Source: Elsinoe ampelina
Lineage: Eukaryota
Length of the DNA stretch: 64,000 nt
Assembly (NCBI GenBank): GCA_010093995.1
Contig: ML992509.1
Location: 790,178 to 854,177 of the forward strand
Reading direction: 5' to 3'
The translations under genes were made by a program, and so were the position numbers. The notes beneath the pieces are model-generated. The model made no database searches. It was given only the letters and a program-made list of their open reading frames with translations, and was not told where the DNA came from. The stretch's first letter is position 1; each line of letters starts with the position of its first letter. Below are positions 1-50,790 of this stretch, piece after piece.

Positions 1-1237
1 ACACCTAAAGTAATAATCTTCTTCTTTGTAAATAACATTACTATTATATATCTTAAGAAGCACAAGGAGAAAGCTAATACTATTATTATAGCCCTCTATA
101 CTAAATATAAGATAAAGGTACTTAGAGATCTAAGCTAGTTTCTAGCTATCTAAGTTATAAGGGATAGACTAATAAAGAGACTCTAGCTTAGCTAAGCCTA
201 GTATATACAACAGATATATAGTAAGTTTATTATAGAACTAATAAGGCTAGTATTAATACTACTACTAATTAAGATACTTTAACCTTATAAAGGCTAAGTA
301 TTACTATAAGAGATCTACCTATATTAGTAAAAGATAAAATCTATTAACTTTATAGCAGTTATTATAAGGCCTAATATAGCCTTTGCTACTTCTAGATTAT
401 TAGAGTATCTAATAAATCTATTACTAACTTACTAGAGAATAGTAAATAGAGTAATCTAATATCTCTATAAAACTAAGAATTTAGCTCTTACCTTTAATAG
501 CTTAATACTACTAATCTTTTAAGCTTTATTAGATACTAGCTTTAGTAGCCACCTAACAAGGAAGAGCCTTTAAGGCTATCTCTTTAAGATGTTTTAAGGA
601 TTAATTAACTAGAAGGCTATAAAGCAACTAATAGTTACAACATTAACTATAGAGGCTAAGCTACTTACTCTTATAAAGACTACTAAGTAAGCTATGTAGT
701 AGAGGAGGCTAATAGCCTCTATCTATCCCCTTAAGTATATTAGTATTTAGTGTAATAATTAGTAAACAATTAGCCTTATTACTAGTCTAATTAAGAAGCT
801 TAATATACGCCTTTATTATATTAATATCTATTATTACTAGCTAAGACAAGAGATTAATCTAGCTAGAGATCTATCTAGCCCTATCTTAGTAACATAGACA
901 CTATTAGTAGACACCTTAGCTAATAGATTAACTAAGTTATTGCTACCTAGAAGGTATAAGGCCTTCTTATAATAGCTATCTCTCGAGTTAGTAGTTCACT
1001 AACTAGCTATAACAGCCTTATAGCTATTTAGTGAAGGGGTGTGTCAACCGAGGTATAAGCTAGAGCGCTAAGAAGGACCCTAATTTAGTTTATCCCTTAG
1101 TAGAACTAAACACTTATCTACTACTCTACCAATTCATAATTAAATTAGATAGTTATTGTCTTAATCTATTATTACTCAGGAGTTCTATTAATTTATCTAT
1201 CTCTTAGTTTATCAGGTTAAGTATTTATATAGTTACA
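1..1237 (+). mobile_element. RIP-mutated Ty1/copia LTR retrotransposon, 3' part (RT C-terminus, RNase H, PPT, 3' LTR); 5' part lies outside the window
   Basis: Very AT/TpA-rich, with an abrupt return to normal GC at 1238. From 532 it reads DTSFSSHLTRKSL*GYLFKMF*GLIN*KAIKQLIVTTLTIEAKLLTL, the copia RNase H motif (DASF..RKS.QGYLFK.FGGPIDWKATKQ.TVTTSTTEAE) after C>T/G>A changes. RT-like LS*FLAI*VIRDR..KRL*LS*A*YI at ~130-207 and LANRLTK (ADGLTK) at ~916-936. Confidence 0.9.
1042..1237 (+). repeat. 3' LTR (~196 bp) preceded by a polypurine tract
   Basis: Purine tract GAAGGGG(T)G at 1033-1041, then TGTCAAC at 1042; ends GTTACA at 1237 (TG...CA termini) exactly where the AT-rich sequence stops. 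The 5' LTR and TSD cannot be checked here. Confidence 0.7.
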
Positions 1238-1719
1238 ATCCACCTCAGTTTGGTGGATCAGGCAGTAATCAATCCTTTTTCCTCCCCTACACAAGTCAAC
1301 AGAATCACTTCCGCCATTTGCGGATCTGCAGACGGCAATTCCCGTGATCCACTCGCGTCACAGGTTTGGAGCTGGGGAAACCGGCTGTATTCTTCTTCTC
1401 TTGCATCGACACATTGCACCTCAAACACTTATTCATCCATGCCGAGCGGGGACACAGAGTCGCCTCATCTTTGGCGAAATTGACTCCTCAATTTGGAGCG
1501 GTTCAACTGCTCAAATTCTCACGGACACTTGACCCTTGCAGGACCCCGAGATCGCGTTCCTGAAAGCTCGGTTTTTGAAGGTCTTCCTACCGAGCAGCCG
1601 ACCCCTGGCGAGCCACAACGATAGCTCCAACAAGGCCGCAGAGTGAGGGCAGAGCTCGGAGACAGAATACGAGAGGACAGTTCAGAGCGCCGACATCATA
1701 GGAGCGAACTTTGGCCGAA

Positions 1720-4700
1720 ATGAACCCCTCACACAGGGAATGGCCTCGTCCGCCCGCGAGCGCCAACAACATTCACCGAGAAGGTGAACAATCGCACTCT
1801 CAACCTCACAGGCCTGGTGCTGGATATGGGTAAGTTCGCCTTCACCAAGCTTGCCTGCTTCTACCGGCGCGACACTGGCAAGAAAGAATTTCAGACTGAC
1901 GCCATCACTAGACCGAGCCCCTCACAAGCTTCACCTCATGCGCCAGCAAGCAGTCTACCGCCATCGTCGGGTAAGTGGGACGCATAAACACAATTCTACA
2001 TTGCGCATAAGCTGACAAATATATCTAGGACATTTTGTGCCATATCAACAGCCAGCTCACGGCCTTCCTGCGCTTGCAAGTATAGGTCAAGGTTCGCCCC
2101 GAAATCAACCTCCACCGCCGGCATCGCATCATCCAGGCGCTTTCCCTGGAGGTGCACCAGGCTCGCGCGAAGCTCAAGAAGCTAGAGATCGAGAACAGCG
2201 GGAAGTACATATCAAGGAAGAGCAGGATCGCCGCGAGCGAGATGTCAGAGAACGACAGCTGTTAGAACAGATGCATCCGCAGCAAGCGCAAGGTCCGCCA
2301 ATTCAGTTGCACCAGCCTGTCGCGGTTGGTCCACACACTGTTCATGGGCCCAATGGTCTGCTTGGAAACCCTGCAGCTCTGGCAGGTGCTGGCGCCCCTC
2401 AACAACTCAGTGGTCCGCCCGGTGCGCCGCCAGCTTATCCAGGTCCACTTGTCCAACAGCCAGGTGGGCCGGTGCAATCTGGCTTGTCCGTCCCTTCTCC
2501 AGCGACCGCAGCACAAGCTGCTGCCCAGGCGCAAGCGCAAGGACAACAGCCGATTCTCAATGTATGTTCCGTGACTTCAAGATCGGCGGAATGGCACTGA
2601 CAAGTTGCAGGACGCACTGAGCTATCTGGATCAGGTCAAGATCCAGTTCAGTGAGAATCCAGACGTTTATAACAGATTTTTGGATATCATGAAAGATTTC
2701 AAGAGTGGAGTGTAAGTTCATATCTCTGACAGACTTCCCGCAACGCTAATTTTCCAATAGAATCGACACACCTGGAGTCATCGACCGTGTTTCTTCTTTG
2801 TTCGCGGGCAATCCGGCGCTTATTCAAGGGTTTAACACATTCTTGCCCCCTGGGTATCGCATTGAATGCGGTACTGGCGACGACCCGAACGCCATACGAG
2901 TCACCACGCCCATGGGTAACACCGTCTTGGCGATGCCAGCTCCATACAGACCACTGTCGCGTGCTGATGGAGACCGCGCAGGTGGTGCTCGAACGCCACA
3001 GCCAGGCTACTCGCCAAGCGGTCGCCCTGTGGGACCTGCCACTGTATCAGCTCAGATCGCCGCGCAGCAAGCGCAAGCCGAGGCTCGTGATGGCGCACAT
3101 GCTCTGCAGGATTCCGCGCGTGGTATGTTCCAACAACACTCCGGCACATCACCAATTCCAGGTCGAGTCACACCAATTCCGTCCGGTGAGGGTCTGGATG
3201 GACAAGCAGGGGATTTGGACGACAAGAAGGAGCCTGTTGAGTTCAACCACGCTATCAACTACGTGAACAAGATCAAGAATCGGTTCTCGTCACAACCTGA
3301 GATTTACAAGTCTTTCCTGGACATCCTTCAAACATATCAGCGCGAATCACGACCAATTCAGGAAGTCTATGGACAGGTCACGAAATTGTTTGAGTCGGCG
3401 CCAGATCTCCTTGAAGACTTTAAACAATTTCTACCTGAAACGACAGCAAAGTCGAAAGCTGCAAAGGCCGCCCGAAGGAGGGACGACGCTGTCAAGACTA
3501 GTGACCTTCGTGAGAGCTCAAAGACGGCGCAACTCCAAAAGACGCCTCATGCAGACAACAGACTTCCTCCAGTTGGCAACTTTGCTCCTACACCCACCGT
3601 TAACAAGGACCATAAGAGGAAGCGTGGTGACACCAAGTCTGGCATGGGCGCTCTCGGTATCACACCAAATGACCAGGGCAAAGGTCTCGGAGCCAGCGGT
3701 AGCGTCGTGAAGAAGGCAAAACACACTGGAGGTATGAGAGTGGACGAGACCGCTGCTGTGTCACCGACATTGGTTCCTGCGCTTCCACAGCCGATGCCCC
3801 CAACCTCAAAGTCCTCAGCGACAAACGACGAGCTAAGCTTCTTCGACCGCGCAAAGAAGACCATCGGTAATAAGAACACGATGAACGAATTCTTGAAGCT
3901 TTGCAATTTGTTCACTCAGGATCTGATCGACAAGACGACTTTGGTTCACCGAGCTCGCAGCTTTATCGGGAGCAACCCAGAGCTCTTCAAGTGGTTCACA
4001 ACATGGGTTGGTTACGAGGATGCCGACGCCTTAGTTATCGAGAATCGCGCGCGACATCCTTCCGGGCGCGTAATGCTGAGCAACTGCCGCGGCTTGGGTC
4101 CCAGCTACAGGCTGCTACCCAAGCGGGAGCGTCTAAAGCCCTGCAGCGGACGTGACGAGCTGTGCAATTCGGTTCTCAACGACGATTGGGCTTCACATCC
4201 GACATGGGCCTCAGAAGATTCAGGCTTCATCGCACATCGCAAGAACACGTATGAAGAAGGTCTCCACAAGATCGAAGAAGAGCGTCACGACTACGACTTC
4301 CACATCGAGGCCTGCGGACGAACGATTCAACTGCTCGAACCATTTGCACAGCAACTTTTGCGCATGCCCGAGAAGGAGCGCGAGACGGTCGAGATTCCGC
4401 CTGGCATTGGCGGTCAAAGCGAGACTATTCACAAGCGTATCATCATGAAGATCTATGGCCGCCAAGCTGGACAGGATGTCATCGAGGCGCTGCATCAAAA
4501 GCCATACGCTGTCATACCTATCGTGTTGAACCGATTGAAGCAGAAACATGAGGAGTGGAAGAATGCTCAGCGCGAGTGGGAGAAGGTCTGGCGGGAGCAG
4601 ACTTCCAAGATCTTCTGGAAATCCCTGGATCATCAAGCTGTCAACGCGAAGCAAGCGGACAAGCGCCAATTCCAGACCAAGACGCTACTCGGGGAGATCC

Positions 4701-6424
4701 AGACCAAGTACGAAGAGCAGAAGAAGCAACGTGTCCAGGGAGCCTCGCTCGCGCAGGTCACGAAGCCACAGATGACCTTCGCCATTGAGGACCTGGACGT
4801 CGTTGCAGATGCTTGCTGTCTGGTCCTGACGTATGCTGAGCACCAGCATGCTACCGAGGCGCCTCGCTTTGCAAGCTTCATCCGAGAATTTGTTCCGACG
4901 TTCTTCAGCATTGACCCAGAGTGGTTCAACCACCAGATCAAGCTGAAGCTTGGTGAAGAGAGTGGCGATGAGATCATGTCCGACTATGATGGATCTGCAG
5001 GTCCCAAGCGGAAGATTGGCAAGAAGGATGATCTTCGTCGTGGCGTGCTCGACCGTGCCAACAAGAATGGTCGAGCCGACGGCAGTGGAACTCCATTCAG
5101 TCGTGCCTCTACACCCGATCACGCATCCCGGGCTGATGAGGAGATGAGCGAGGCCGCCGAGGTTTCCGCTGAGGATGGTGCAGACGCCATCAACGATACT
5201 TGGGCTGATTACCCTGCCGGCCTGAACAAGTACCGCAACAAGGAGATCAACCTCAACGAGCCGTACAAGCGGAACGACTACAATCTGTACGGCAACACGT
5301 CGATCTACTGCTTCATCCGCATGTTCGTCATATTATACGAACGTCTCAGCAAGCTCAAGGAGTCGGAAGCGGAAGTCCAAGACGCAGTCAAACGAGCTAT
5401 GATGAGCAAGGCCGCAATCGATCTCGGACTGGTGGAGAAGCAACCAACAGATTTCTTCAGCGATGTCAGCCCGTCAGCCAATTACTACAGACAAATGCTG
5501 GGCATGTTCGACGACTTGATCCGGAACAATGACATCGACCAGCCGCATATCGAAGAAACTCTTCGAAGATACTACCTCCAGTCGGGCTGGCAGCTCTACA
5601 GTGTTGACAAGTTGCTGAGCGCCCTTGTCCGCTTCGTGATCGGCATCATGGCAAGTGATAGCCGAGACAAGAGCTGGGAGATTTTGCAAGCCTTCAAAAA
5701 GGATCGTGTCAAGGATGAGACGACTTACTACGACGAGATGAATTACCGCAAGACAGTCGAGCGCTACATCAAGGATGGCGACACGTACAAGATCAACTTT
5801 GTAAGGCTAAACCCTGGCCCTCTCGAGAATGATGTAGATACTGACTTCCAACAGGACGCGGATAAGTCCCTCATCAGCATGAAAGTCTTCAAGCGCGACG
5901 AGCCCACCTTCGAAACCTCCACCATGATCGCAGAAGACGTCTGGCGAGTCTATGTCAACGACTTCCTCTCCACTTCGCCCACCCATGGCACACCAATGGA
6001 GCTCATCTCCCTCCCCGTTCTTAAGCGCAACATCAAGACCGCCGGCACCGCCAACGGCACAGCCGAGGGAGAAGAAGACGAATCCCTCGCGCGCCGCTAT
6101 GATTTCGTCAAAGCCAAAGAGCAGCTCGAATTCAAGATCCTGGTCGGCGACCTCAAGCTGGCCTTCACCCCGGAGAACGACGAGTACTGGCACCAGATGC
6201 TGCAGGCTCGCGCGGGGGGCAAAAAGGGTATTGAGGGTGCGGACGAGGCGGTGCATTATAGGGATGAGACCGTGGCGGAGAAGTTTACGATGAATAATGA
6301 GGGGATGAAGGGGTTGAGTAAGGAGGATGTGGAGGGGAAGAATGAGCTGTTCAGGAAGATGGCTGATGGGGAGCCGCAGGAAGGTGGGGCCGAGGGGGAG
6401 GGGGAGAAGATGGATGAGAGCTAG
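1720..6424 (+). CDS. SIN3: Sin3 histone deacetylase complex scaffold (PAH domains, HDAC-interacting domain, Sin3a_C)
   Basis: PAH1 [61 protein letters not shown]2 [61 protein letters not shown] 1720; GT-AG introns ~1830-1911, 1971-2028, 2562-2610, 2712-2760, 5801-5854. Confidence 0.96.
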
Positions 6425-8445
6425 AAGGCTCGTTCAGATGGTGGTGACAGAGCAGACGGCGGTCGTGAGGAACAAGGGTCGGATAAGGCGGCGGGAGCAG
6501 GGAACAGTGGTGAAGGGGATGATAACGGTGACGGGTCCGACGAGGACGAGAAGAAACCTGGCAAAGATCAGGCCCCAGATGCAGATGCAGAGGACCCCTC
6601 GGACGAGGAAAAGACATCATCCGAGAAATCAGACTCAGACTCCGAATTCGAGGCAGACCTGGGCGCGGCAGACCCGCCGGATGAAGGCTACGAATCACAG
6701 TCAAACGGCAATGCTCACCCGCCTAGACCCCTCTCGCCCCTCGACGGTGACGTGTCCGATGCTTCGACCGTGCTGGACCATCCACCGGGGTCGCCGCGGA
6801 TATACATCAGACGACTGGAATGGATGAGGGCGAGGAGGGAAAGGGCGGATATGCGGAGGAGGAGGCGGGATGAGGCTAGGGACGATGGAGGTGAGGACGA
6901 TGGTGTTGAGCATGGGTCGGCGGTGAAGGGGGGTTCGAGAAAGAACGATGGTTTGGGGGAGAAGGATGATGATGGTTAGCTGTAGCATTATTCGGTTTGG
7001 AGTTTGGGAATGATTCTCTTTTGCCTCTTCCATGCGCACTCCGTTCTACGCCTCGTTGTCGCATGTGATGCTTGACATCGGTCAGGTGATTCGTGGTTGC
7101 GTGACCACATCCTACTAGCGGAACATCTCAAAAAGAAGGCAAAGCGGCTCGGAAAGGAAGCATGCTTACCCGAAGGATAGGGTGATATATAATGAGCAGG
7201 CCAAGGGGATCGGCACGTGACATGAAGAAGGTCTATGGGCAATCTTGCCGGAAGGGCGTTCAGTGCTTCTAACGCTTTTCGGAGGATGGAAGGATAAGTC
7301 ACGACGCAGTCCTAGTAGAGCTTTGCTGACACTCAATAGAAAGGGGGCAAGGACCGGAGAATGAGCGAGCGGGCTTGATGGACTGGATGCAGACCAAAAG
7401 CGTTTTGAGCGCGTAGAGCTAAGAAGATAGCTGTCAATAGACCATTTGGAGCAAAACCCCTGATATGTGTGCACGATGAACGTAGTAGCAGGCGAAAGGC
7501 TTCATGCGGTAGCTTTGCCTGAAAGTCCGCTGCTCATGACCACGTGGATAGGAGATTTCACTAGGCCAGGAAGGCAAAGAAAAGCTCCGAATGACCGACA
7601 TGGTGGTTGTAATTTGTGGATCTGCCGTTTGCTCACCTTGACCTTAGTATCCAAGGGTTCAAGGCAATGCGAATGATCTTCGATCACCTGCACAAAGACT
7701 CGTCGCGCCTTGTTATGGTGGAACAAGTGAATTGTGCAGGCCCTATGAATGAACCTGAAGCATTTCATACATGATGCGAGTGATCTCACCTGTGTTTGCG
7801 ATTGAGGTCAGATTGCTCTGATACAAAGTGGTTATAGACAACGTGACATCATGGCGACAAAGATTCCAGCCTACCTATCTACCTTACCCAAAGAGGAAAC
7901 TATCTTCGCAGGACGAGACGGGGTTGCATGGCCCCGAAGACGTGACGGACATGCAGAATGCCTTGATTTTATTGTCATTCAGGCAATCACCATCCAGAAC
8001 CAGAGAAGCTGCTGCTGCTCCGTCTCTTCTCAAGGCGCTGGGCGGAGGCGGAGGGCTTGCCGGCGCACAAGGTCAGCACCGCCAGTCCCAGTCCCAGTCC
8101 CAGCTGCGGCAGCCTCGATGGACATTCAAGTATCCAAGCAGTCGCAAGAATGACACGGGTGTTGTTTTCTGTTGGTTCTCAACACCCAATTTTCCCTCTT
8201 TCCCTACCGTCGCCTTTACACACCTATCTACCAAAGCTCTGTTTGTTCTATTAGTACCAATACCGCCTCTATCGCGCAGACCTGAAACCAGACCTATCCC
8301 GACGGATCAATTTACTATTCTTCATACCCAAGTTCCTTTGCAATAATTGCCCATCCTGAACTCGTCATTGCGCAAACCAACCGCGTTGGGAGGACCGCCA
8401 CCTCCTTACACTTCGCAGTCCGCTGCCATCAATTCACAAACCGCC

Positions 8446-9186
8446 ATGGCTAGTTACCCAGGCGCCGCCTATCTCCAAGGGCAACCTCTTCCAGGTCCAC
8501 CACCAGGACCACCTCCAGGACCGTCAAGGCAGGCATCGCACGCCTCGCAGTACTCGAACAATTCATACGGCGCGCCTTCACCATATCAAGAGGGATCAGC
8601 TCACAATCAAGCTCCTACCTCGGCACCTCAGCCATTCCTCCATTTCCAACCACAGCCGAACGGCCAGCAACTTCCTCCAATTCCCCAGCATAGACCGCTG
8701 TCCAATTCCCAGATGAGACACCACTCTTACTCTCAACCACAGCAGATCCCTCCTGGCTACCTCGGCCCACCAGGCTACCTCCATCCCCAGCACGCTTCTG
8801 CCCCTCAACAGTCCTGGATGCCTCCAAGCGGTCCCAATACACCGGGCAGCTACCCCTTCGGTGAGCCAGGCTACTCTCAGCATCCAGGCTTGGATCCTCG
8901 CCGATACAGCGCCTCCTCTCACGGATCTTACCACTCGACACACAGCAAAGGCCGCAAGGGCCGCTACAGCGACGACAGCGGCTTCAGCGACGACGAGACG
9001 TGGGATAGCATGTACGACAGCGAAGAGGAAGAGAGGCGCCGGAGGAAGAAAGAGAGGCGGAAGAGGAGAGAAGAGGAGGCTAGCAAGAGCAAGCGGAAGA
9101 GGGACCGGCCTACCTTGGGAGACAGCGTCTTCGCCGTCTTCGATGGGTTCAAGGGGGCATTTAGCAGTACGGACGCAAAGCATTAG
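8446..9186 (+). CDS. Pro/Gln/Ser-rich low-complexity hypothetical protein with a basic/acidic C-terminal segment
   Basis: Open frame with a good start context (ccgccATGg) and biased codon use; ends ...RRRKKERRKR...RPTLGDSVFAVFDGFKGAF. No domain recognised. Confidence 0.7.
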   Translation: MASYPGAAYLQGQPLPGPPPGPPPGPSRQASHASQYSNNSYGAPSPYQEGSAHNQAPTSAPQPFLHFQPQPNGQQLPPIPQHRPLSNSQMRHHSYSQPQQIPPGYLGPPGYLHPQHASAPQQSWMPPSGPNTPGSYPFGEPGYSQHPGLDPRRYSASSHGSYHSTHSKGRKGRYSDDSGFSDDETWDSMYDSEEEERRRRKKERRKRREEEASKSKRKRDRPTLGDSVFAVFDGFKGAFSSTDAKH

Positions 9187-15620: not shown

Positions 15621-17003
15621 ATGGCTGCTACCATGACCACACAGCTCGAAGATGAAGCTAGAGCCTCTTTCCAAGAAGACATTCGATCACTGAGCCCACT
15701 TCCACCTACCAATGGATACTCACATACGCTGGACTCGGAGTCGAGTGCGGCGGAAACGCGAGAGCTAGAGTTCCCTGACTTACCACCATTCCCTGAAGAC
15801 GTGTCGACGGTACCGCTCTTACGAATAAAACTGAGCAAGCTCCTCAAAGGCGACGAAGCCGAAATCGACCGGTTATGGAAAGCCAGCTGCGAGCTCGGCT
15901 TCTTCTACTTGGACTTGCGGGCAGATACTACATCAAACAACGGTGTGAGGTCACCCGAAGTGGAAGAGCTGAGCCACAATGTCTGGGGCGATGATGCTCC
16001 TGCTACACCTACCAAGTCTGAGTCGACGAATGGGCAGATAAATGGACACACAAAGTCGCTTGAAGTGCAGATCGACAGCGAAAAGCTGTTGAAGAATGTA
16101 GACGAGTTGTTCAAGATTGGCGAGCAAGTCTTCGACCTGCCAGTCTTGGAAAAGGTCAAATATGATCTCAAGTCGAAAGGAAGCTACTTCGGCTATAAGG
16201 GCTACGGTGACGGGATCGTAGATTCCAAGGGCACCAAAGATCGGAATGAGTTCTACAATGCCAGCTTCTCCTCCAATTGGTGCTGTCCATTCGGCTGACA
16301 AATCAACCAGGTATCGAAGGACGACATACTCGGCCTCTCAGAGCGCTTACCAGCTCCTTCAGTCTTGGAATCGCCTCGACCTATCATCAAATCTTACATG
16401 CAACAATCACATGCCATTGTCTCCCTCATTCTACGGTTGCTCAATTCACGCCTCGATCTCGCCCCTGATACTCTTCCGTCACTGCATCGCCTGCATGCAA
16501 TCTCCGGTGATCAGCTGCGTTGGGTATATGCGCCACCACAACCATTTGATGATCGGAAGACTGCTCTCGGAGAGCACACAGATTTTGGGTCTGTGACGAT
16601 TCTCTTCAATCGATTAGGAGGCCTACAAGTACTCCCGCCCGGCAGTGATGAGTGGAAATATGTCAAACCTCTCAGACACCATGCAGTGGTCAATCTGGGC
16701 GATGCTATGGTGAAGTTCACAGCCGGTATACTGAGGTCGAACATTCACAGAGTGGTAAACCCGCCGGGAGAGCAGGAAGATCATACGAGGATGAGCTTGG
16801 TGTACTTTGCACGACCAGAAGACGATATCACCCTGAAAGCGTTGGAAGGGAGTGCACTTATCGATGAGAAGAAGAAAGAGCTCGGCGATGAAGGTCCAGA
16901 GATTAGTGCAAAAGAGTGGATCTTGAAGAGAGCACTAGGGAGGCGAGCAGGAGGCAACTATGAAGAAAGCCATGGCACCGAGGCGAGGAGGACAGATAGC
17001 TGA
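15621..17003 (+). CDS. 2-oxoglutarate/Fe(II)-dependent dioxygenase (IPNS-like family)
   Basis: GFFYL, DRNEFYN|VSKDDILG, HTDFGSVTILFNRLGGLQV, VNLGDAM, SNIHRV and RMSLVYF. One 51-nt intron at 16260-16310 with a GC donor. Confidence 0.92.
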
Positions 17004-48680: not shown

Positions 48681-50790
48681 ATGCCAAAAGCCATAGGTAA
48701 CAATTTGAGCACAAGCCATCATGTTCATGACCAATTGACTCACGACGAACAGATCTCCTTCTCACAATCGCCATCCCCGCTCTCATCCTCGTCCACCTCT
48801 TCGCCGCTCCTTACACCAAGGTCGAGGAGTCGTTCAACATCCAAGCGATACACGACATCTTGACTTTTGGTATTCCAAACCCGCTAGACAGCGATGCTGT
48901 GGACTACATCAAGACGAACTATGACCATGCTAGTTTCCCTGGATCTGTCCCGAGGACTTTTGTAGGGGCGTCGGTGTTGGCTGGTCTTGCTCGGCCCTTT
49001 GTTGGACTGCTGAGGTCGCCGGAGCAGGTGCAGTTGCTTGGTAAGGACGACCATCTCGGAGAGAACACAGATACTGAACCGGTGTAGTTCGTGGGATTCT
49101 TGGGCTGATCAATGCTGCTGCTCTGGTGAGGTTCAGGGTTGCAGTAGATGTGGCGTATGGTAGGACTGCAGGACGATTCTACCTCGCTTTCGTGGCGTGC
49201 CAGTTCCAGCTGCTGTTCTATGCTTCGAGGACGTTGCCGAATTACCTCGCCTTGCCTCTGAGTAAGTATAAATACTCAAGTGGAAGTCAGTTCGTGCTAA
49301 TAGTGTTAGCAATCGAGGCTTCGAGAGCATTGCTTCTGTCGTTATCTACTTCTCCAAAGCTGAGACCGTCATCACGAAGGAGACGACTATGTCTATATCT
49401 TCTCACCGTATCTGGTATCATATTCCGGTCTGAAGTGGCACTCCTCCTGGCTACGACCGCTGGCACGCTCGGCTTGTTCTCTGGTCTTAAGATTCGATCA
49501 GAGCTCATACCTGCTGTCTTTGCTGGAGCACTCATCGCCTTGCCTACTACCCTTGGACTCGACACGTTTCTCTGGCGACCAAGGATCGCGCTTAGTCTCA
49601 CATACGACACCGGCTCGAGCACCTTCCAGATTCCTGTCCCCACCTGGCCAGAGCTCCAAGCCTTCCTCTACAACACCATCCAAGGCCACTCCTCCGAATG
49701 GGGCACCTCCCCCTTCCACTACTACTTCACCTCGGCCCTCCCCAAACTCCTCCTCAACCCGATCCACCTCCTCCTTATCCCACTCTCCCTCACCATCCCC
49801 GCCCTCCGCCGCACCTCCCTCACCTCCCTCCTCCCCTCCCTCCTCTTCATCACCCTCTTCTCCCTCCTCCCCCACAAAGAACCCCGTTTCATAATCTACA
49901 CCCTCCCCCTCCTCCTCGCCTCCTCCTCCTCCAGCGCTTCCTACCTCTTCACCCGCCGCCACAAATCCCCTCTCTACCTCCTCTCCACCTCCCTCATCCT
50001 CCTCTCCCTCCCTCTCTCCCTCCTCCTCTCCACCACCACCCTCTACATCTCCACCCTCAACTACCCCGGCGCCCACGCCCTCTCTCTCCTCCACGAAATG
50101 GCCTCCCCCGCAAGCCTATCCTTCTCCTCCGCCGTCCCAGCCCACATCCACCCCCCCACCTCCCACCCCAGAGAACCCCCCGTCTCCCTCTCCCCGTCCG
50201 AAGCAGCCCACGCCCTGACGGCAGCAGCAGCGGCGCGCCACGCCGCCTCGGCCCTCAGAGCCAAAGGACACGTGCGCATCCACCTCGACAACCTCGCCCT
50301 CCAAACCGGCGTCACCCGCTTCCAGGAAGCGCACCGCCGCTCTCGCGCGCCGCCGCCGGGCGTCGTCATCGTCGAGCGATCCGATCGAGGCAACTGGGTG
50401 TACGATAAAACCGAGGACGTCGCGAGGCTGAACGCGCCTGACTTCTGGCTCGATGTGGATTTTGTCGTCTGCGAGAGGCCGGACAAGGTGCCGGGTGTGT
50501 GGGAGGTGGTGGGGAGTGTGGAGGCGTTTGATGGGGTGGGGGTCAGGTTGCGTCCTCAGACGGGGGAAAGGGAGGGGGCAGAGCGGGCGGTGCATGAGGT
50601 GAAGGTGAAGGGGAGGGAGGTGTTTTTCCCCGAGATCAAGGGCGGGGGATTGGGCAAGGTGACGAGGGTGGTGGCACTGGGGGTGGAGAAGGTGGGGAGG
50701 AGGGTCGCGGGGTGGAATGGTGGGTGGTGGCCTTATATCAAAGTCAAGGAGAAGCTGTTTGTCTTGAAGCAGGGGAGTTTGGGAGTGTGA
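48681..50790 (+). CDS. ALG12: Dol-P-Man alpha-1,6-mannosyltransferase (GT22)
   Basis: APYTKVEESFNIQAIHD, YDHASFPGSVPRTFVGA, YASRTLPN, IFRSE, SSEWGTSPFHYYF, PHKEPRFIIY, NYPG, QTGVTRF and YDKTED; introns 48697-48752, ~49042-49087, ~49262-49309. Confidence 0.94.

What the first reader, a model, noticed from the sequence alone, without database searches (positions are those of the whole stretch)
6422..6979. SIN3 frame stays open for 184 protein-like codons after the TAG
Seen: after TAG 6422-6424 the same frame continues without a stop to TAG 6977-6979 (KARSDGGDRADGGREEQGSDK...EKSDSDSEFEADL...IYIRRLEWMRARRERADMRRRRRDE...). It is dominated by GAN/GGN codons in that frame and gives an acidic tract plus an Arg-rich helix. 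Possible routes (inference): (a) an alternative intron removing the stop, since GTAAGG at 6318 or GTGGGG at 6384 joined to TTCAG at 6437 both keep the frame (120 or 54 nt), although branch sites are weak; (b) UAG-to-UIG stop-loss editing, established in sexual tissue of Sordariomycetes; (c) readthrough, though TAG-AAG is not a classic leaky context; (d) a recent nonsense mutation. Caveat: G-rich composition lowers the chance of stops.
Basis: partly seen in the sequence, partly recalled or inferred. Interest (0 to 1): 0.7.

Follow-up and report, generated by a model that had tools for sequence, protein, structure and literature searches.

The report
Hidden protein tail behind SIN3 stop
In a grape-infecting fungus, the mRNA of the gene-silencing scaffold SIN3 carries 184 more protein-like codons right after its normal stop codon; they may form a rarely made extra tail, but nothing yet shows they are translated.

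Summary
Observation confirmed. After TAG 6422-6424 the SIN3 frame stays open for 184 codons (37 of 20,000 dinucleotide shuffles). Its codon-position bias was reached by 0 of 5,000 frame-blind simulations. Among 88 other ORF ends sampled from this genome, the only long, coding-like post-stop frames followed stops inside introns. The fungus is Elsinoe (SIN3 identical to a protein named E. ampelina). The TAG sits at the conserved SIN3 C-terminus, so a recent nonsense mutation is refuted. One spliced RNA contig runs through stop and extension to 7442 with no junction and no A>G; contigs drop rare forms. A-to-I editing is unlikely: neither DUF726 (Ame1-family) gene has the MV residues needed. The context UAG-AAG is not a known leaky one, and no homologue of the extension was found. 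Best reading (0.35): a cryptic, disordered, acidic C-terminal extension with one basic helix, reached by occasional UAG readthrough. Rivals: untranslated relic of coding sequence (0.25), minor splice form (0.15), compositional by-product (0.15). The decisive test, the 3' flank in other Elsinoe genomes, could not be run.

The parts
2750..6424 (+). Long SIN3 frame (PAH repeats, Sin3_corepress, Sin3a_C); reads through one in-frame intron; 5' exons lie further upstream
   Evidence: 1220 of 1220 residues identical to P0011, named Elsinoe ampelina
5801..5854 (+). 54-nt GT-AG intron, spliced in RNA; positive control that run X3 is RNA
   Evidence: joint 5800 to 5855; signals GTAAGG / ACTGAC / CAG
6422..6424 (+). 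Normal SIN3 stop codon TAG, context AGC TAG AAG; its A (6423) falls in the loop of a small, non-significant hairpin
6425..6976 (+). 184-codon in-frame open segment inside the mRNA's 3' region; coding-like; no homologue found
   Evidence: searches
6425..6706 (+). Acidic, hydrophobe-poor tract (residues 1-94, net charge -22); no T at codon position 2 in the first 66 codons
   Evidence: no secondary structure in the single-sequence model
6794..6883 (+). Predicted Arg-rich helix (extension residues 124-153), the only confidently folded element
   Evidence: H313-342; pLDDT 72-91 in blocks 311-340, single-sequence model
6707..6707 (+). Only variant seen in the extension between runs: G>A, Gly95Ser; no stop or indel
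   Evidence: X4, X7
6977..6979 (+). Second TAG; G-rich before, T-rich after, like ordinary gene ends of this genome
6980..7442 (+). Ordinary non-coding 3' region, covered by the same spliced RNA contig to 7442
6318..6437 (+). Candidate alternative intron sites (donors 6318, 6384; acceptor 6437); not seen used

Best explanation
The segment is a cryptic C-terminal extension of SIN3 kept under protein-level selection. Most ribosomes stop at UAG 6422 and make the standard SIN3 of about 1,470 aa. A minority, or a regulated fraction, insert a near-cognate residue (Gln, Tyr or Lys, by analogy with yeast) and go on to UAG 6977, adding about 185 residues: an acidic disordered tract, a Pro/Ser linker and one Arg-rich helix. 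Such a tail could change the stability, localisation or partners of the SIN3-HDAC scaffold. Shown: open frame, coding-like bias in the SIN3 frame only, presence in the spliced mRNA, conserved first stop. Inferred: translation, the route, and any function.
For: Coding-like signal starts at the first TAG, ends at the second, and is confined to the SIN3 frame. T at codon position 2 is 0.00 in the first 66 codons, against mean 0.25 and minimum 0.09 at 55 other gene ends. Hydrophobic fraction 0.098 is lower than 131 of 131 coding windows and below the non-coding minimum of 0.217; low hydrophobicity and disorder are what selection on readthrough tails is reported to give (10.1101/737452 abstract; PMC6550407 section heading). 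The second TAG has a normal gene-end profile, while the 200 nt after the first are T-poorer than at 55 of 55 other ends. One RNA contig bridges stop and extension without junction or edit. There is no in-frame AUG until codon 135, so the segment is not an ordinary separate gene. No stop or indel appears in the two further runs covering 6402-6940 (weak, one SNP only).
Against: No ribosome or peptide data. UAG-AAG matches neither UGA-CU (PMC4207609) nor UAG-CAR-NBA (PMC4973966). No stimulatory RNA structure: z = -0.38, +1.20, +0.03, no Rfam match. No homologue in five protein searches. Four distinct distant SIN3 loci end in TGA with post-stop frames of 16, 2, 4 and 56 codons. Synonymous codon use is inconclusive: 25 of 131 coding windows score lower, 33 of 131 non-coding windows score higher. 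Most readthrough is argued to be non-adaptive error (PMC6550407 abstract).
Confidence: 0.35

Rival explanations
1. Untranslated relic of coding sequence: the 3' part of a former downstream orphan gene, or a duplicated and diverged SIN3 tail, became joined behind the stop and now sits in the 3' UTR, not yet decayed.
For: Explains coding-like bias without a leaky context. The second TAG looks like a real gene end. A 34-nt imperfect direct repeat ends at both TAGs (6391-6424, 6946-6979; 71%; post hoc p about 0.002).
Against: Needs a junction within a few codons of the stop and in frame. No parent gene in this genome or in protein collections that hold E. batatas, E. fawcettii and E. australis proteins. 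A 555-nt tandem duplication is not supported overall (DNA 57 of 1,000, protein 630 of 1,000 shuffles reach the score). Divergence of 29% without any stop or frameshift would itself imply selection.
Confidence: 0.25
2. A minor or stage-specific splice form removes the stop: donor 6384 or 6318 joined to acceptor 6437, or the known donor 5801 joined to the stop's own AG at 6424 as an alternative last exon. All three keep the frame.
For: The sites exist and are in phase. The 54-nt option equals the size of the confirmed intron. Contigs drop rare variants. Fungi use splicing to bypass stops (PMC4207609, PMC11156358 passages).
Against: Only the 5800-5855 joint is seen in the spliced contig. No branch consensus lies within about 50 nt upstream of 6424 or 6437; the one at 6362 has nearer AGs at 6373 and 6379. 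The candidate intron is G-rich. The 6318 and 5801 options delete invariant SIN3 residues.
Confidence: 0.15
3. Compositional by-product: a purine-rich 3' UTR grown by triplet slippage from SIN3's G/E-rich tail, never under protein-level selection.
For: Gene ends here are G-rich. Synonymous usage is not clearly coding. The Arg-rich part begins in an out-of-frame look-alike of SIN3's last codons (repeat D4). No homologue found.
Against: 0 of 5,000 frame-blind simulations reach the codon bias. Only two 15-16 nt tandem arrays in 6200-7700. One register holds across G runs of 4-6 nt. The middle third is C-rich yet scores highest as coding (0.29). No comparable case among 88 other ORF ends.
Confidence: 0.15
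4. Sexual-stage A-to-I stop-loss editing (UAG to UIG, read as Trp).
For: U at -1, G at +1, A at +3 and a loop position fit the fungal preference (PMC11156358). Elsinoe ampelina has a sexual stage (PMC8295512) and a listed Ame1 orthologue (PMC11087585 Data 6). Pseudothecial fungi were noted as uninvestigated in 2020 (PMC7306014). The tissue of the runs laid is not on record.
Against: Editing needs Ame1 residues MV500-501, gained in Sordariomycetes (PMC11087585 section 17). The two full DUF726 genes here have KS and LA just before RAD[KQ]AG (position inferred by counting back from the catalytic Ser and from a recalled motif, plus or minus one residue). No A>G in contigs. The stop-loss tails cited for F. 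graminearum are 11-27 aa (PMC13123824). The hairpin is not significant.
Confidence: 0.06
5. Recent nonsense mutation that truncated a longer SIN3.
For: Only the continuity of composition across the stop.
Against: All 9 homologues end at the same M(D)Ex motif, as do the E. australis proteins and the distant loci. All three runs covering the TAG keep it.
Confidence: 0.01

Closest known systems
SIN3 corepressor family (Pfam PF02671, PF08295, PF16879)
   Same: Host gene is an ordinary member with the conserved Myriangiales C-terminus.
   Different: None of the homologues retrieved carries the 184-aa tail; annotations stop at the first TAG.
Fungal functional readthrough at UGA-CU(A) making peroxisomal PTS1 isoforms (PMC4207609)
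   Same: Conserved first stop with an in-frame extension in the mRNA.
   Different: UAG-AAG context; 184-aa tail ending in DDDG, no PTS1; host is a nuclear regulator.
Long disordered readthrough extensions of Drosophila regulators (PMC4999894; Vvl/Dfr, PMC8417969)
   Same: Long regulatory host protein; long, disordered extension; poor conservation beyond close taxa.
   Different: Those were shown by cross-species conservation, ribosome profiling or protein detection; here none is available. Yeast extensions are described there as lacking such hallmarks.
Sordariomycete stop-loss A-to-I editing, e.g. FgDBF2 (PMC13123824, PMC11087585)
   Same: UAG stop, preferred flanking bases, loop position, disordered tail.
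   Different: Host is a Dothideomycete whose DUF726 genes lack MV; no edit seen; tail about seven times longer than the longest of the three examples cited.

Membership tests
SIN3 family (host gene) | PAH repeats, Sin3_corepress and Sin3a_C domains | tested here: met
Functional translational readthrough | First stop at the conserved orthologous position | tested here: met
Functional translational readthrough | Extension present, unspliced and unedited, in the mature mRNA | tested here: met
   contig X3 record 2, dominant form only
Functional translational readthrough | Coding signature continues in frame up to the second stop | tested here: met
   single-genome measures only; synonymous usage inconclusive
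Functional translational readthrough | Leaky stop context (UGA-CU, UAG-CAR-NBA) | tested here: not met
   UAG-AAG-GCU; contexts from PMC4207609, PMC4973966
Functional translational readthrough | Stimulatory 3' RNA structure | tested here: not met
Functional translational readthrough | Cross-species conservation of the extension frame | tested here: inconclusive
   absent in 4 distinct distant loci (about 40% identity); no close-relative 3' DNA obtained
Functional translational readthrough | Ribosome footprints or peptides beyond the stop | not testable with these tools
   no such data offered
Stop-loss A-to-I editing | UAG with U-1, purine +1 and +3, in a hairpin loop | tested here: met
   fold not better than shuffles
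Stop-loss A-to-I editing | Ame1 with MV500-501 in the genome | tested here: not met
   (KS and LA; site located by inference)
Stop-loss A-to-I editing | A>G reads at the stop in sexual tissue | tested here: inconclusive
   none in contigs of X3, X4, X7; tissue unknown, rare variants dropped
Alternative intron removing the stop | Junction in RNA | tested here: inconclusive
   none in contigs; contigs show presence, not absence
Alternative intron removing the stop | Branch consensus shortly before the acceptor | tested here: not met

The most novel reading that the evidence does not exclude
Elsinoe makes a second, long SIN3 isoform by regulated bypass of a non-leaky UAG (readthrough, or a stage-specific splice or edit). 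The isoform carries a selected 184-aa acidic disordered tail with an Arg-rich helix: an animal-style long regulatory extension on a core chromatin corepressor in a Dothideomycete fungus, through a signal not yet described.
Probability: 0.3. Interest if true: 0.75.

Novelty: new variant of a known kind. Interest (0 to 1): 0.47.

Why it matters
The fungal stop-bypass cases seen in the papers read here give short tails (peroxisomal signals at UGA-CU; 11-27 aa degrons by editing in Fusarium). A long selected tail on SIN3, the scaffold of the main histone-deacetylase complex, would show a recoding route in Dothideomycetes that annotation misses, and would give a switch on global repression that can be tested with one reporter. 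If the segment is a relic or a proto-ORF, it is still a clean case for studying how new C-termini arise from 3' UTRs. A paper search for Sin3 + readthrough + fungal + stop codon returned one unrelated tRNA review; the library lacks most subscription journals.

Tried and rejected
Homologues of the extension: none among 277 candidates of 101-322 aa at E<=1, 287 candidates of 323-2000 aa at E<=10 with residues 78-156, 1.84 billion representatives at E<=0.001, Pfam, ESM Atlas whole and part, or exact look-ups. Hits covered the SIN3 half only. Proteins under 101 aa were not searched with the word-index tool. No second copy in the genome. Antisense-shadow explanation rejected: 6, 3 and 3 stops in the minus frames and coding score at most 0.03. 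A 555-nt tandem duplication is unsupported. No Rfam family, no tRNA gene in the window. Close-relative 3' DNA was not obtained: run X12 covered only 5959-6184; the metagenome scan gave 6 loci of 178 candidates, all about 40% identical; the prokaryote collection gave 0 of 94. No holder was on record as RNA; X3 was shown to be RNA by its splice joint, X4 and X7 were not. X4 and X7 contigs start at 6402/6407 and stop at 6940/6928; both edges lie at G runs, so they were not read as transcript ends. 4 of 12 listed runs were laid. BLASTP of the extension against P0018 gave nothing (best E 0.05). E. batatas locus tags of SIN3 and the next gene are not consecutive, so they gave no synteny test. A text search for SIN3 in 5 supplementary files of PMC13123824 found nothing; this is uninformative if the table uses locus ids.

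Full report
1. The observation. The long frame 2750-6424 is SIN3 (PAH, Sin3_corepress, Sin3a_C). Composition does not explain this. The frame stayed open in 11 of 20,000 mononucleotide and 37 of 20,000 dinucleotide shuffles. Frame-blind Markov models of order 2-5 trained on the segment kept it open in 8-32 of 5,000 runs, and none of 5,000 at any order reached its base-by-codon-position bias. That bias (G 0.54 at position 1, A 0.41 and T 0.08 at position 2; p 2e-11) holds in all three thirds and vanishes after 6979.

2. Background in the same genome. From the window plus 20 stretches of 10 kb on the same contig I trained a coding model without SIN3 and scored 89 of 91 candidate ORF ends; 2 lacked downstream sequence. 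The extension scores 0.24 per codon in the SIN3 frame (SIN3 tail 0.36), at most 0.03 in other frames, and -0.35 downstream. Of the 88 other ends, 6 have post-stop frames of 148 codons or more. Three of these are stops inside introns and three score 0.06 or less and look like overlaps with the other strand; this was judged by eye. For 55 ends picked by hand from that list as true gene ends, T at codon position 2 over the next 66 codons averaged 0.25 (minimum 0.09); after the SIN3 stop it is 0.00. The 200 nt after the first TAG are T-poorer than at all 55, while the second TAG is G-rich before and T-rich after, like ordinary ends. Hydrophobic residues make up 0.098, below 131 of 131 coding windows. 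Against this, synonymous codon choice lies between coding and non-coding (25 of 131 coding windows lower, 33 of 131 non-coding higher). The sample is one contig and unannotated.

3. Organism and stop. The nearest proteins are from Elsinoe, Sphaceloma and Myriangium; the frame is identical over 1,220 residues to one named Elsinoe ampelina, a Dothideomycete. All 9 hits end at the same M(D)Ex motif. Six metagenome loci, four of them distinct, also stop there, with TGA and post-stop frames of 16, 2, 4 and 56 codons. So the TAG is the ancestral terminus, and the long frame is not shared by distant SIN3 genes. One annotation, P0018, has a different last exon from its cluster partner P0007, without similarity to the extension.

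4. RNA. Four of 12 listed runs were laid. X3 is RNA: its contig skips the GT-AG intron 5801-5854. The same contig runs from 5855 to 7442 with no other joint and no other letter, so stop and extension lie together, unspliced and unedited, in the dominant transcript, with at least 1,018 nt behind the stop. X4 and X7 cover 6402-6940 and 6407-6928 and differ only by G6707A (Gly95Ser). X12, a relative, covers only 5959-6184. Contigs drop rare forms and give no strand, and the tissues are not on record.

5. What the segment encodes. Residues 1-94 are acidic (net -22), 95-124 Pro/Ser-rich, 125-153 basic (net +7). A single-sequence AlphaFold2 model is low-confidence overall (mean pLDDT 42.5) and confident only for a helix at extension residues 124-153. 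No homologue was found. It is not an antisense shadow, not a tandem array, and not a recognisable 555-nt duplication. A 34-nt, 71% direct repeat does end at both TAGs (post hoc p about 0.002). The first in-frame AUG is codon 135.

6. Routes. Nonsense mutation: refuted (paragraph 3). Editing: the flanks (U-1, G+1, A+3) and a loop position fit the fungal preference (PMC11156358, parts 1-2 of 3 read), but the fold is not better than shuffles (z -0.38). Editing is reported for Sordariomycetes and Pyronema and depends on Ame1 MV500-501 (PMC11087585, passages and section 17). That paper's Data 6 lists Elsinoe orthologues, and pseudothecial fungi were noted as uninvestigated (PMC7306014, passages). 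The two full DUF726 genes of this genome (2 of 3 matches) have KS and LA at the inferred site (located by counting from the catalytic Ser and from a recalled motif). But no branch consensus is near these acceptors, the one at 6362 has nearer AGs, two of the options delete invariant residues, and no junction was seen. Readthrough: UAG-AAG matches neither UGA-CU (PMC4207609, passages) nor UAG-CAR-NBA (PMC4973966, passages), and no structure follows the stop.

7. Judgement. The coding-like signal starts at one stop, ends at the next, uses only the SIN3 frame and lies in the SIN3 mRNA. A history of translation as SIN3's tail explains all of this with the fewest coincidences, and readthrough is the route least contradicted (0.35). 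It has no direct support. A relic of coding sequence (0.25), a minor splice form (0.15), a compositional by-product (0.15), editing (0.06) and nonsense mutation (0.01) are the rivals. Any function (stability, localisation, partner binding) is inference.

8. Comparison. It works like the long disordered readthrough tails of Drosophila regulators (PMC4999894, abstract and opening; PMC8417969, abstract) more than like fungal PTS1 readthrough or the 11-27 aa editing tails of Fusarium (PMC13123824, passages and section 13). Selection for disorder and low hydrophobicity in cryptic tails is reported in yeast (10.1101/737452, abstract), and most readthrough is argued to be error (PMC6550407, abstract and headings). 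It fails the context and structure tests for known readthrough and the Ame1 test for editing, so it is not filed as a member of either. E. ampelina has a poorly studied sexual stage (PMC8295512, passages). Nine paper searches were answered (listings only) and none showed a report of an extended fungal SIN3; subscription journals are mostly missing, and bioRxiv supplements were not seen.

9. Verdict. A real and unusual feature with an unproven mechanism; interest 0.47. Aligning the 3' flanks of the public Elsinoe genomes would settle most of it.

Noticed in passing
window 5801-5854: This stop-free 54-nt intron is spliced in RNA, yet the identical named protein P0011 reads through it, and P0003, P0004, P0008 and P0010 carry an insert at the same place: probable annotation error, or retention.
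   Followed up: partly
window 6391-6424 and 6946-6979: 34-nt imperfect direct repeat ending in both TAG stops (GEKMDES* / GEKDDDG*); may be convergence of G-rich gene ends or a trace of duplication.
   Followed up: partly
window 6410-6428 and 6820-6838: The Arg-rich helix starts in an out-of-frame look-alike (16 of 19 nt) of SIN3's last codons.
   Followed up: partly
window 7619-8446: A second X3 contig begins at 7619, about 830 nt before the next gene's ATG at 8446: possibly a long 5' leader with upstream frames (7806-8153, 7822-8346).
   Followed up: no
window 49498-50115 (-): A 205-aa Gly/Glu-rich open frame that is the in-register antisense shadow of a C/T-rich gene; shows how acidic ORFs can arise without being genes. 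The SIN3 extension is not of this type.
   Followed up: partly
L029, L030 (G000:C9:597167-598177; C11:580735-581784): Two DUF726 (Ame1-family) genes; neither has MV at the inferred Tad3-binding site.
   Followed up: yes
protein P0018 versus P0007: Two members of one cluster differ in their last residues: P0018's annotation splices past the usual stop into a different short C-terminus.
   Followed up: partly
window 1000-1250: AT- and TA-rich stretch upstream of SIN3, resembling a RIP-mutated repeat (resemblance recalled, not tested).
   Followed up: no
window 16255-16310: The 2OG-Fe oxygenase-like gene (family recalled from its motifs) has an in-frame TGA at 16296 inside an apparent short intron that my consensus scan for splice signals did not flag; possibly non-canonical sites.
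   Followed up: no
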